Positions 25,401 to 28,400 of a DNA stretch of 64,000 nucleotides are shown here, one piece after another (position 1 is the first letter of the stretch; every line of letters starts with the position of its first letter). The translations under genes were made by a program, and so were the position numbers. A model generated the notes under the pieces. The model was not told the DNA's origin, did not search any database, and saw nothing but the letters and a program-made list of their open reading frames with translations. Source of the stretch: Hydrolagus colliei (lineage: Eukaryota); assembly GCA_035084275.1 (NCBI GenBank), contig CM068751.1:3968001-4032000 (forward strand), read 5' to 3'.

Positions 25401-28400
25401 CAGGAAACAATTGGAGACATCTCTCCAGAGTACTGACAATGAGAAACAAGGACATTTCTTAAACATGTGTGAAGAAGCATGAACGCTAAACATGCTTTTG
25501 TATTCCTTGGGTTGAAAAAATGCTTTTAGGCGAATACTTGATTATCACACAAAGTCTTTCAAATACAGCAGTGTGCTGAGCCTAAATTTGGGGGATATTT
25601 AGATGTACATAATCATTTCTATCACTATGCCCAGCATACAGTAGATACAGTAGTGTTTTTTTTGCCTACATACCTCGAAGAATTCGCTCCTCATGGCATC
25701 GAAGAAAGTCCCAGATTCGAACTGTGCCGTCATCAGAACATGTGGCAAATTTATTATCCGTAGGTGAGAAACTGTTACATGAAGACACACAGTAGGGGAA
25801 AGAAGTCAGCATTTAACAGGAGCCGAAGTCAGCCCAATCTGGGGCATCTTCACATACACCTTCTCTACAAATGGATCCCAGAAATTAATAAGAATAACCT
25901 TAATGGCTTATTAAACAGGTCCTAAAGTCACAGGTTATACACTGCCAAGGACAAGATAAACAATTATATTTATTATGGCCACTGCCAAAAGATGGTGTAT
26001 CGAGATTGTTCAATGCAGGTTATTCCTTCAATGTCCTGAGAACTGCATGCAGTTATTATATTTAAATTTTATTACACTTGGGAGTTCATCTGTAAACACC
26101 CTTCTAAATGGCAACAGTAAGTAATTCTGTGTACTTATCCCAATTAATTAATGACTTTTAAAAAGATAGGATTGCATGGGGAGCTGTGAAACACATCAAG
26201 TGTTGCAGTTTTCAAACTTTGCCTGAGGAAATGGACAGGGAAAGCAATCGCCCAGAACAACGCTGAAATTTAAAGTCTGTTAGGGAATCTTGATAATCCG
26301 CCATTTCATTGGTGAAGAGTAAGGAGGGGGCTGATTGGCCCCCCACCCCTCCTTTCCACAAATTGGCAGATGGAGATAGGGCAATACAGATGAGAGGATA
26401 ATTTCTGGATGATAAATGTTCTCAATAACATTAATACCTAGTGTTTTCAATTACACTTTCCCAAAGAATTCAAACAAAAATAATGTTTTTGTTTAGGCAG
26501 CAGCTTGGCATGGTTTATGGGAATTTATGGAGGGACTGCGTGCAGAATACAAATCATCCAGCAATGTTCCAGTTGTGACCTAATATCTGATAATAAAGAC
26601 TTCCACAAATTGCAGGAATGATCAGGAATTTAGAATCGGAGTCAACAGGTCAGGGAAGGGTGATCTTAAGGCTGTTTTGAATTGAACAGTAAGTAACAAC
26701 TGATGTTGTATTCTGATATTTTATCATTCATAATTAATAAGAGATTTCTTGAGAAATATGCCATGTTGCTTAAGCATGAGAAGTTGTGAGGTACAATTCA
26801 ATGGAAAATATATTATTGTCAGAAAGAAATGTTACCCTGGGTTTAAATAGCCACGGTTTCTTGTTTAGAGATAACTACGCAAAGTTTTCTTTTACCAAGC
26901 AAGATTAAAAAACAGCTATTTCAGACAGCCTATCAGCACAATATCATGATTCTTGGACCAAACATACAACAACATTTGGGGACTCTCATTTATCCACCAA
27001 TTTCAAACATCTACAGGTGGCCTCCTCCAGCAAGGCAGATAACCGAGGTTTCTATGATTGCACATTTCAGTCAGAAAACCTTTTCCTGCATCAGCCACGT
27101 TTGCTGAGAGGTGAAAAGTATCTGCAAATGTCAAACCTAAGACACAACTTGTCGCATTGCAAGTGTTAAGATATTGCACAGGCATAGCCCCATTAGTCAC
27201 TTCACATCTAGTCTTCCATCAACTCTACCCACGTAAACATCAGTATCAATGTTGTGCGCCAGCTACTGATATTTTCATGAATGGACATCTTCAAGTGCTT
27301 CTAGTTTTGAACCTATGACTATTGCTGTCGTGGCCCCTTAACTGGCACGTTACGCCTGTTGCATTTGTCACCACGCCATGATCTGACAACTATAAAAGTG
27401 ACATCTAGTGGAAATACACTGGTAATAAAATACTTAATTTTAATGACACTTAAGGGGTGGGGGGGGGGAGGAAGGGGGACACATTCTCAGGATGTATGGG
27501 ACCTGGAAACTTTACAAACTAGAAAAAAAAATCATCCCTGTAAAAGGCTGATAGGGTTGTTTGCCTCCATTTTTCAAATTGAAAAGTCTTAAAAAGATTG
27601 ATCTGGCACGACCACAAAAAGTTTCTCATAATACTGAAAACTGTGACATCTTCTCGTTATAATGGAAACCCTGAATGGAATGGGCTGAACTTGTTTTATT
27701 GTTCTCTGACAGATTACAGCCCACAGTAACTAAGTTACTTTCTGCAAGACCCGCCATTTTATTTTATTTTGCTGGTGGAAATATATTTTTTAATCGTTTC
27801 AAATTTAATTTTGTTTTGCAGCTCTTGATTCCAGTGTTCCACTGTATGCAGTTGGATGTCCCCAGTAACCGTGGTCTAAGTATTTATTTTTAAATTCTTG
27901 TATATCACCACCGTTGGGATTCCGCTGACCATTTTACTTCAGTGTTGAAATTGGTTTTATTTCTGAAGTTTTAACCTTTATTCAGTTTTTTAAAAAAAGG
28001 AAATGCTTTATTTAAAAATGTAAAAATCTTGCTTACAAAGAACTCATAAGAGGAATACTCGTATACATTAGGACTGCAGCAAAGCTCACAGCAGTATAGC
28101 ATACTGCCAACATCCACATTTCTCAAGAATGGCAAAGTATAAATACTGCACCATAGTTCTATAATAGACAACGTGGCATTTTGTGTAAAAGAGGAAACAA
28201 ATGAAAATATTGAATATGAAATGTAGAGCATCGCTCCTAGGGTCTCCTGGAAACCATGCACAACTCCACCTAGAATACATTGAAATGATAATATAATACC
28301 AATCCCTACAGAAAACTGCATAGCATTAATCCACCTGGCCTCTCTAATCGCCTCCTTGTGAGCTTGGAACATCTTCACATTGTTCATGTTGGACTGCCAG

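What the first reader, a model, noticed from the sequence alone, without database searches (positions are those of the whole stretch)
27860..28340. Weak donor plus AATAAA cluster: possible autoregulatory intronic polyadenylation of the AAUAAA reader
Seen: the exon 6 donor (AG|GTGGAT) is among the poorest consensus matches in the gene, and four minus-strand AATAAA follow within ~450 nt. Two are embedded in frame as Asn-Lys codons (LNKAF, LNKG*), with TGTA motifs just upstream (~28035, ~28065). Established: WDR33 with CPSF30 binds AAUAAA; CSTF3 and PCF11 autoregulate through a weak donor plus intronic PAS. Inference: high mPSF activity would truncate WDR33's own transcript and switch output to the short isoform.
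Basis: partly seen in the sequence, partly recalled or inferred. Interest (0 to 1): 0.7.

Follow-up and report, generated by a model that had tools for sequence, protein, structure and literature searches.

The report
Conserved early stop in WDR33 intron
Intron 6 of this apparently shark-like fish's WDR33 gene, which encodes the protein that reads mRNA end signals, carries a dense, conserved cluster of those signals matching the known human site for the short V2 form, so some transcripts likely end early here; whether WDR33 itself controls that is untested.

Summary
The exon-6 donor is third weakest of 22 by weight matrix, mid-ranked by U1 pairing. This is the orthologue of the published human V2 intronic poly(A) site (PMC11019558, PMC11445923): a 121-codon hydrophobic read-through, UGUA 21 nt before the first hexamer, a further hexamer 16 nt into exon 7. 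Three hexamers persist with their flanks in an amniote-type locus but in other frames, so the Asn-Lys overlap is incidental. The tail shows no third-position bias, and 12 of 12 independent animal groups keep a hexamer within 400 nt (4.0 expected) with read-throughs of 1-171 codons: the RNA signal is better kept than the protein. Feedback by WDR33/mPSF is not shown: PCF11 loss lowers WDR33 intragenic polyadenylation in human and zebrafish, but FIP1 knockdown did not alter V1 or V2. No 3' ends could be seen for this species. The scan noted this element in other genomes before. Verdict: real, a new member of a known kind.

The parts
1182..33485 (-). WDR33 coding span, 23 coding exons (numbered 2-24), 1,332 aa full-length (V1) model
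   Evidence: tblastn of relatives, exon mapping, open spliced frame
28335..28486 (-). Exon 6 (152 nt, second WD repeat)
28329..28337 (-). Exon-6 donor, non-consensus at +4/+5; third weakest of 22 by matrix, mid-rank by U1 energy
25772..28334 (-). Intron 6, 2,563 nt
27971..28336 (-). Read-through frame of 121 codons plus stop, V2-like hydrophobic tail (predicted isoform 329 aa)
   Evidence: 0 of 5,000 shuffles stay open; homologous to mammalian and zebrafish V2-type tails
28064..28067 (-). TGTA (CFIm-type motif), 51 nt before hexamer 1; 49 nt in L001
28034..28037 (-). TGTA, 21 nt before hexamer 1; 19 nt in L001; about 20 nt for human PAS0
   Evidence: PMC11445923
28007..28012 (-). AATAAA 1, positional counterpart of human V2 PAS0; 33 nt before the stop codon
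27977..27982 (-). AATAAA 2, 3 nt before the stop codon; flank identical in L001
27956..27961 (-). AATAAA 3, after the stop; flank identical in L001
27883..27888 (-). AATAAA 4
27758..27768 (-).
27695..27700 (-).
25674..25771 (-). Exon 7; holds a hexamer 16 nt after its acceptor with TGTA 20 nt upstream, the geometry published for human V2 PAS3 and the same in L001
   Evidence: PMC11019558, PMC11445923

Best explanation
This is the orthologue of the human WDR33 intron-6 poly(A) site, where a poor donor and a UGUA-plus-AAUAAA cluster likely let 3'-end cleavage compete with splicing, so that some transcripts would end inside intron 6 as a short V2-type mRNA predicted to encode two WD repeats and a hydrophobic tail instead of the full AAUAAA reader. 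Shown here: the donor, the cluster, the open tail, their homology and conservation. Known from human cells: use of these sites, slow intron-6 splicing, weak sites, dependence on CFIm25, sensitivity of WDR33 intragenic polyadenylation to PCF11. Inferred: use in this species; cleavage after hexamers 2-4 would give a complete 329-aa isoform, cleavage after hexamer 1 would mostly give a stop-less, probably degraded mRNA; selection acts mainly on the RNA signals and on keeping a loosely specified hydrophobic open frame. Every such event removes one full-length transcript, so the site also works as an attenuator tuned by general 3'-processing versus splicing activity; specific feedback from WDR33 level is not part of this claim.
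For: Cluster far above chance. Tail homologous to V2: hits include gibbon, zebrafish RefSeq isoform 2 and many fish V2-type proteins. Intron DNA aligns with amniote-type locus L001 over about 390 nt (score 235.5; 200 shuffles max 133), three hexamers and two TGTA kept at like spacing. L001 and L002 donors score 2.0 bits against 9.3 and 7.7 for their exon-5 donors. Exon-7 hexamer geometry equals the published PAS3. 12 of 12 independent locus groups with 400 nt available hold a sense hexamer there (4.0 expected, 4 on the opposite strand). Read-through is 121 codons against 1-30 for 20 other introns (one more reads 89 through a 105-nt intron). Best 19-residue hydropathy window 2.08. Human mechanism: PMC11019558, PMC11445923.
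Against: No cleavage site was observed for this species. The 40 nt downstream of hexamers 1-4 are only 20-23% T and poor in GU, so the sites look weak, and several A-rich windows nearby could fake 3' ends by internal priming. The donor is unremarkable by U1 energy and two donors of the gene without nearby hexamers score lower. Outside vertebrates the exon-6 donor is weaker than the exon-5 donor in only about half of the loci (10 of 19 clusters, two of them the vertebrate ones; human-type matrix). The control window +600 to +1000 also holds a hexamer in 12 of 26 clusters. The tail's hydrophobicity is matched by its other two frames (GRAVY 0.81 and 0.62 against 0.62), so it is weak evidence of a membrane protein.
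Confidence: 0.85

Rival explanations
1. CSTF3/PCF11-type negative autoregulation is the main purpose: more WDR33 or mPSF would raise use of the intronic sites and cut full-length output; the tail is secondary.
For: The signal outlasts the tail: 12 of 12 groups keep a hexamer while read-throughs run 1-171 codons and the first hexamer lies past the stop in 9 of 12; no third-position excess in the tail (20/54 against 32/107, p 0.38) unlike exon 6 (19/50 against 1/102, p 7e-10); frames of the hexamers differ; hexamer 1 would give a stop-less mRNA at 19 of 21 cut positions here and 18 of 21 in L001; WDR33 is a named example of PCF11-dependent attenuation in human and zebrafish.
Against: FIP1 and CstF64 knockdown left V2 and V1 unchanged, and CFIm25 knockdown lowered V2 without raising V1; V2 and V3 rose threefold on poly(I:C) with V1 unchanged; intron 6 is short (2.6 kb here, 1,668 nt in human), unlike the 33-kb CSTF3 intron. 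The PCF11 passage I read does not say which WDR33 intron is affected.
Confidence: 0.3
2. The site exists chiefly to make a conserved ER protein that regulates STING, as reported for human V2.
For: Tail frame open for 118-123 codons in mammal-type, amniote-type and this sequence, frame kept over the first 150 nt against L001, chance of the open frame 0 of 5,000; a STING ligand-binding domain is encoded in this genome (three exon matches at one place); human data in PMC11019558.
Against: No codon-position signature; frameshifts among relatives in the distal half; frog and teleost-type tails share little beyond the first ten or so residues; several invertebrate-type loci have tails of 1-14 codons yet keep the hexamer; the authors found no antibody that detects endogenous V2.
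Confidence: 0.35
3. The hexamers are a by-product of A/T-rich sequence and are not used.
For: A-rich surroundings and poor downstream elements.
Against: Composition-preserving shuffles do not reach the count; flanks conserved to an amniote-type locus; use of the orthologous site shown by 3' RACE in human.
Confidence: 0.04

Closest known systems
Human WDR33v2 (V2) / rat NET14 intron-6 and exon-7 polyadenylation (PMC11019558, PMC11445923)
   Same: Same intron, in-frame read-through of about 120 hydrophobic codons after two WD repeats, hexamer inside the frame near the stop with UGUA about 20 nt upstream, second site 16 nt into exon 7.
   Different: Here seven hexamers cluster; hexamer 1 is 33 nt from the stop (12 nt in human, where cleavage completes the stop), so its use would mostly give a stop-less mRNA; tail sequence is distant; expression, localisation and STING binding unknown.
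CSTF3 (CstF-77) intron-3 autoregulatory poly(A) site (PMC3708835)
   Same: Core 3'-processing gene, weak donor, conserved intronic site of moderate strength.
   Different: CSTF3 intron is 33 kb with a 0.7th-percentile donor and yields no apparent protein; feedback was shown there, not for WDR33.
PCF11 intron-1 PAS1 autoregulation and PCF11-dependent attenuation (10.1101/491514)
   Same: Conserved intronic site in a 3'-processing gene; WDR33 itself is shown as a PCF11-attenuated gene in human and zebrafish.
   Different: That is cross-regulation by PCF11, not a loop through WDR33's own product.

Membership tests
WDR33 V2 intronic polyadenylation | Located in intron 6 of WDR33, after two WD repeats | tested here: met
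WDR33 V2 intronic polyadenylation | In-frame read-through with stop inside intron 6, homologous to the V2 tail | tested here: met
   121 codons; homology
WDR33 V2 intronic polyadenylation | AAUAAA near the stop with UGUA about 20 nt upstream; hexamer 16 nt into exon 7 | tested here: met
WDR33 V2 intronic polyadenylation | Transmembrane segment in the tail | tested here: inconclusive
   Best 19-residue Kyte-Doolittle mean 2.08, but other frames are as hydrophobic; no TM predictor available
WDR33 V2 intronic polyadenylation | Polyadenylated 3' ends at these sites | not testable with these tools
   Only assembled contigs were served; they cannot show ends
WDR33 V2 intronic polyadenylation | ER localisation and STING regulation | not testable with these tools
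   Only the presence of a STING domain gene was checked
CSTF3/PCF11-type autoregulatory intronic poly(A) site | Weak donor upstream, conserved | tested here: inconclusive
   Weak by matrix here and in L001/L002, no +5 G implied in 75 of 75 vertebrate-type tails, but mid-rank by U1 energy and not consistently weak in invertebrate-type loci
CSTF3/PCF11-type autoregulatory intronic poly(A) site | Deeply conserved intronic hexamer | tested here: met
CSTF3/PCF11-type autoregulatory intronic poly(A) site | Very large intron (CSTF3) | tested here: not met
   2,563 nt, third longest of 22 against 33.2 kb
CSTF3/PCF11-type autoregulatory intronic poly(A) site | Use responds to the gene's own protein level | not testable with these tools
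   No such test found in print; indirect data mixed

The most novel reading that the evidence does not exclude
The WDR33 intron-6 site is an animal-wide attenuator, older and more constrained than the V2 protein, by which the AAUAAA reader meters its own level; the V2 tail is a later, lineage-variable use of the retained intron, and in non-mammalian vertebrates the first hexamer sends transcripts to non-stop decay.
Probability: 0.3. Interest if true: 0.6.

Novelty: new member of a known kind. Interest (0 to 1): 0.3.

Why it matters
As an orthologue of V2 it extends a published human isoform to a deep vertebrate branch, which is modest news. What the comparison adds is that the RNA signals, not the tail, carry the conservation; this bears on whether V2's reported immune role is ancient or a mammalian add-on, and it names the exact conserved elements to mutate in a test of a feedback loop for the core poly(A)-signal reader, a loop shown for CSTF3 and PCF11 but not found in print for WDR33.

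Tried and rejected
Expression: no RNA holder listed (all ten RNA labels are guesses and belong to a related organism A). Four runs were laid on 26300-28325: X5 gave one 261-nt contig on 28033-28288 with 4 differences, X9 nothing, X1 and X12 only short chance-like pieces; since the intended DNA-like control X12 did not cover the conserved part either, the lack of cover further into the intron says nothing, and contigs cannot show ends. The exon 6-exon 7 junction could not be examined in reads. Of X5's 4 differences 3 change the residue, too few to weigh. RNA structure: no signal for the 406-nt region (z -1.02) or for six 56-nt windows round the hexamers (z -1.36 to +0.25); a hairpin that buries hexamer 1 here is not formed in L001, and an AUAAA-loop hairpin array noted by the scan in other animals is not seen here. 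Conserved Asn-Lys overlap: rejected. A V3-like cluster in intron 7: ten hexamers spread over 7.8 kb, no cluster; alternative acceptor not searched. No structure or complex prediction was run, since no binding is claimed. Literature passages in PMC4407891, PMC8217545, PMC8904962, PMC11831233, PMC7471841, PMC10394034, PMC12990805 gave nothing on WDR33 feedback; their supplements and those of the two V2 papers were not opened and may hold WDR33 site-level data. One planned search on the plant orthologue was not run (term too short).

Full report
Setting. The window holds WDR33 on the minus strand, with POLR2D-like exons upstream at 43.3-43.8 kb (name recalled from the peptide). The first coding exon is 95.6% identical to a skate protein, 89.7% to a bird and 86.8% to zebrafish, so the animal is probably a cartilaginous fish; the genome has 1.0 billion bases. 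Twenty-three coding exons splice to one open frame of 1,332 aa. Exon 6 is 28486-28335 and intron 6 is 2,563 nt.

Observation. Three more hexamers follow at 27763-27768, 27758-27763 and 27695-27700, giving seven in 320 nt, the densest cluster on either strand of the window (next best 3). Dinucleotide shuffles of the first 455 nt reach four in 0.1% of 5,000 trials, of the first 700 nt reach seven in 0 of 5,000, and 150 shuffles of the whole gene never exceed four in 320 nt. The donor is third weakest of 22 by a recalled human-type matrix, second weakest by a leave-one-out matrix, but tenth weakest of 22 by U1 duplex energy. 'Among the poorest' is fair; 'very weak' is not shown.

What it is. The frame of exon 6 stays open for 121 codons into the intron; 0 of 5,000 shuffles do so. 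A protein search with it (120 best of 317 hits listed) returns V2-type read-through proteins of mammals, other amniote-like forms, frogs and teleosts, including zebrafish RefSeq isoform 2. Liu and Manley (PMC11019558; I read parts 1-2 of 10 and passages) describe human V2: intron 6 retained, a 118-aa hydrophobic tail, functional sites PAS0 inside the frame 12 nt before the stop, PAS3 16 nt into exon 7 and PAS5 in intron 7, ER localisation, STING regulation, and homologues in Drosophila and Nematostella. Liu, Seimiya and Manley (PMC11445923; parts 1-3 of 5) show that the V2 sites are weak (PAS0 about 0.26), carry UGUA about 20 nt upstream, depend on CFIm25 and profit from inefficient intron-6 splicing. 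The window repeats this geometry: TGTA 21 nt before hexamer 1, and a hexamer 16 nt into exon 7 with TGTA 20 nt before it.

Conservation at DNA level. One scan of metagenome contigs returned 80 loci (best 80 of 148). L001 encodes a tail of the amniote type; its intron aligns to the window's over about 390 nt (score 235.5, best of 200 shuffles 133), with hexamers 1-3 and their flanks kept and TGTA at 49 and 19 nt (51 and 21 here). In L001 the hexamers fall in frames 2, 1 and 2, so none reads Asn-Lys. Among 75 vertebrate-type tails (78 proteins ending exon 6 in [IV]REAR, three outside my pattern) 31 hold NK beyond residue 40, 10 of the rest end in K and 3 hold IKN or IKS, as other frames of the hexamer would give; the closest tail, P0002, ends before it. 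The second and third tail residues imply no G at donor position +5 in all 75 and a pyrimidine at +3 in 74 (the pattern used to pick them favours this). L001 and L002 donors score 2.0 bits. Of the 80 loci, 59 have a GT donor at the same place (the rest lack the intron or were not parsed); they form 33 clusters, and 30 of 30 with 400 nt available hold a sense hexamer there (6.9 expected, 8 on the opposite strand, 12 of 26 in a +600 to +1000 control). Many are close kin, so I merged them by any intron similarity: 12 of 12 groups with 400 nt, 4.0 expected, 4 on the opposite strand (one group's window runs past its 344-nt intron but its hexamers lie inside). Read-through lengths in these groups run from 1 to 171 codons and the first hexamer lies beyond the stop in 9 of 12. 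The donor is not consistently weak outside vertebrates (weaker than exon 5's in 10 of 19).

Protein or RNA? Against L001, exon 6 differs almost only at third positions (19 of 20 differences), whereas the first 200 nt of the tail differ evenly (17/55, 15/52, 20/54; p 0.38). The tail is 40% T and its other two frames are as hydrophobic. Yet the frame is long and open in all three vertebrate types examined, and unshifted over the first 150 nt. The simplest reading is strong selection on RNA signals and loose selection for an open hydrophobic extension. One two-sequence comparison over such a distance is a limited test.

How it most likely works. After exon 6 is transcribed, slow commitment of the donor likely leaves time for CFIm on UGUA and mPSF on one of several hexamers to cleave within 0.3-0.7 kb, or at the exon-7 site. 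Cuts 10-30 nt after hexamer 2 all leave the stop intact (0 of 21 stop-less) and would give a 329-aa isoform; cuts after hexamer 1 would leave no stop at 19 of 21 positions here and 18 of 21 in L001, whereas in human the cut completes the stop. Downstream U/GU content is low, in line with weak sites. All of this is inferred for this species; no 3' end was observed.

Autoregulation. For: the conservation pattern above, and WDR33 is displayed as a gene whose intragenic polyadenylation falls on PCF11 depletion in human cells and zebrafish (10.1101/491514, passages and section 12; figure not seen, intron not named). Against: FIP1, an mPSF subunit, and CstF64 could be knocked down without change in V2 or V1, and CFIm25 knockdown lowered V2 without raising V1; immune stimuli move V2 without moving V1; the intron lacks the great length that matters for CSTF3 (PMC3708835, passages). 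Five searches found no direct test of WDR33 on its own site (listings, and passages of the papers named under Tried and rejected; PMC11331416 and PMC10286830 passages, restate V2 and report its rise in M1 macrophages). I put a true WDR33/mPSF feedback loop at about 0.3.

Earlier notes. The scan had nothing near this place but at least eight notes on the same intron in other genomes, most with a like reading. I saw them after my analyses; they are unchecked and add no support.

Verdict. Real and conserved, and explained as the orthologue of the published V2 poly(A) site: new member of a known kind, interest 0.3. The open and testable part is whether the site is first an attenuator.

Noticed in passing
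window 11503 and 2559 (minus strand): The donors of exons 15 and 22 score lower than that of exon 6 (2.43 and 5.55 bits) and have no AATAAA in their introns.
   Followed up: partly
window 28412-28417 region, exon 6: Exon 6 reads ADHCGY where the relatives aligned have G, S or A at that Cys.
   Followed up: no
window 1-1181 (minus strand): No AATAAA in the first 1.1 kb after the full-length stop; the first lies at 64-69, so the terminal site may be non-canonical or the 3' UTR may run past the window.
   Followed up: no
window 8228-8413 and 6169-6288 (minus strand): The model has two more coding exons than the 21 introns published for human would give; these two low-complexity exons keep the frame open but lack homologue or read support here.
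   Followed up: partly
window 31148-31153 (minus strand), exon 4: A further AATAAA is coded in exon 4 (TNKV), conserved as protein in relatives.
   Followed up: no
L016 group (29 loci), intron offsets about +270 to +335: In one invertebrate-type group the first hexamer sits at a nearly fixed distance from the donor, close to the +323 of the window, with low shuffle expectation.
   Followed up: partly
L019, L079, L063, +600 to +1000 of the intron: Second dense hexamer clusters (5, 5 and 3 copies) further into the same intron.
   Followed up: no
L015, L017, L020, L028-L033 and similar: Several loci have no intron at this position and read straight into the exon-7 peptide; they may be transcripts or intron-poor eukaryotes.
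   Followed up: no
G000:C19:4257340-4258613: Single place with three exon matches to the STING ligand-binding domain.
   Followed up: partly
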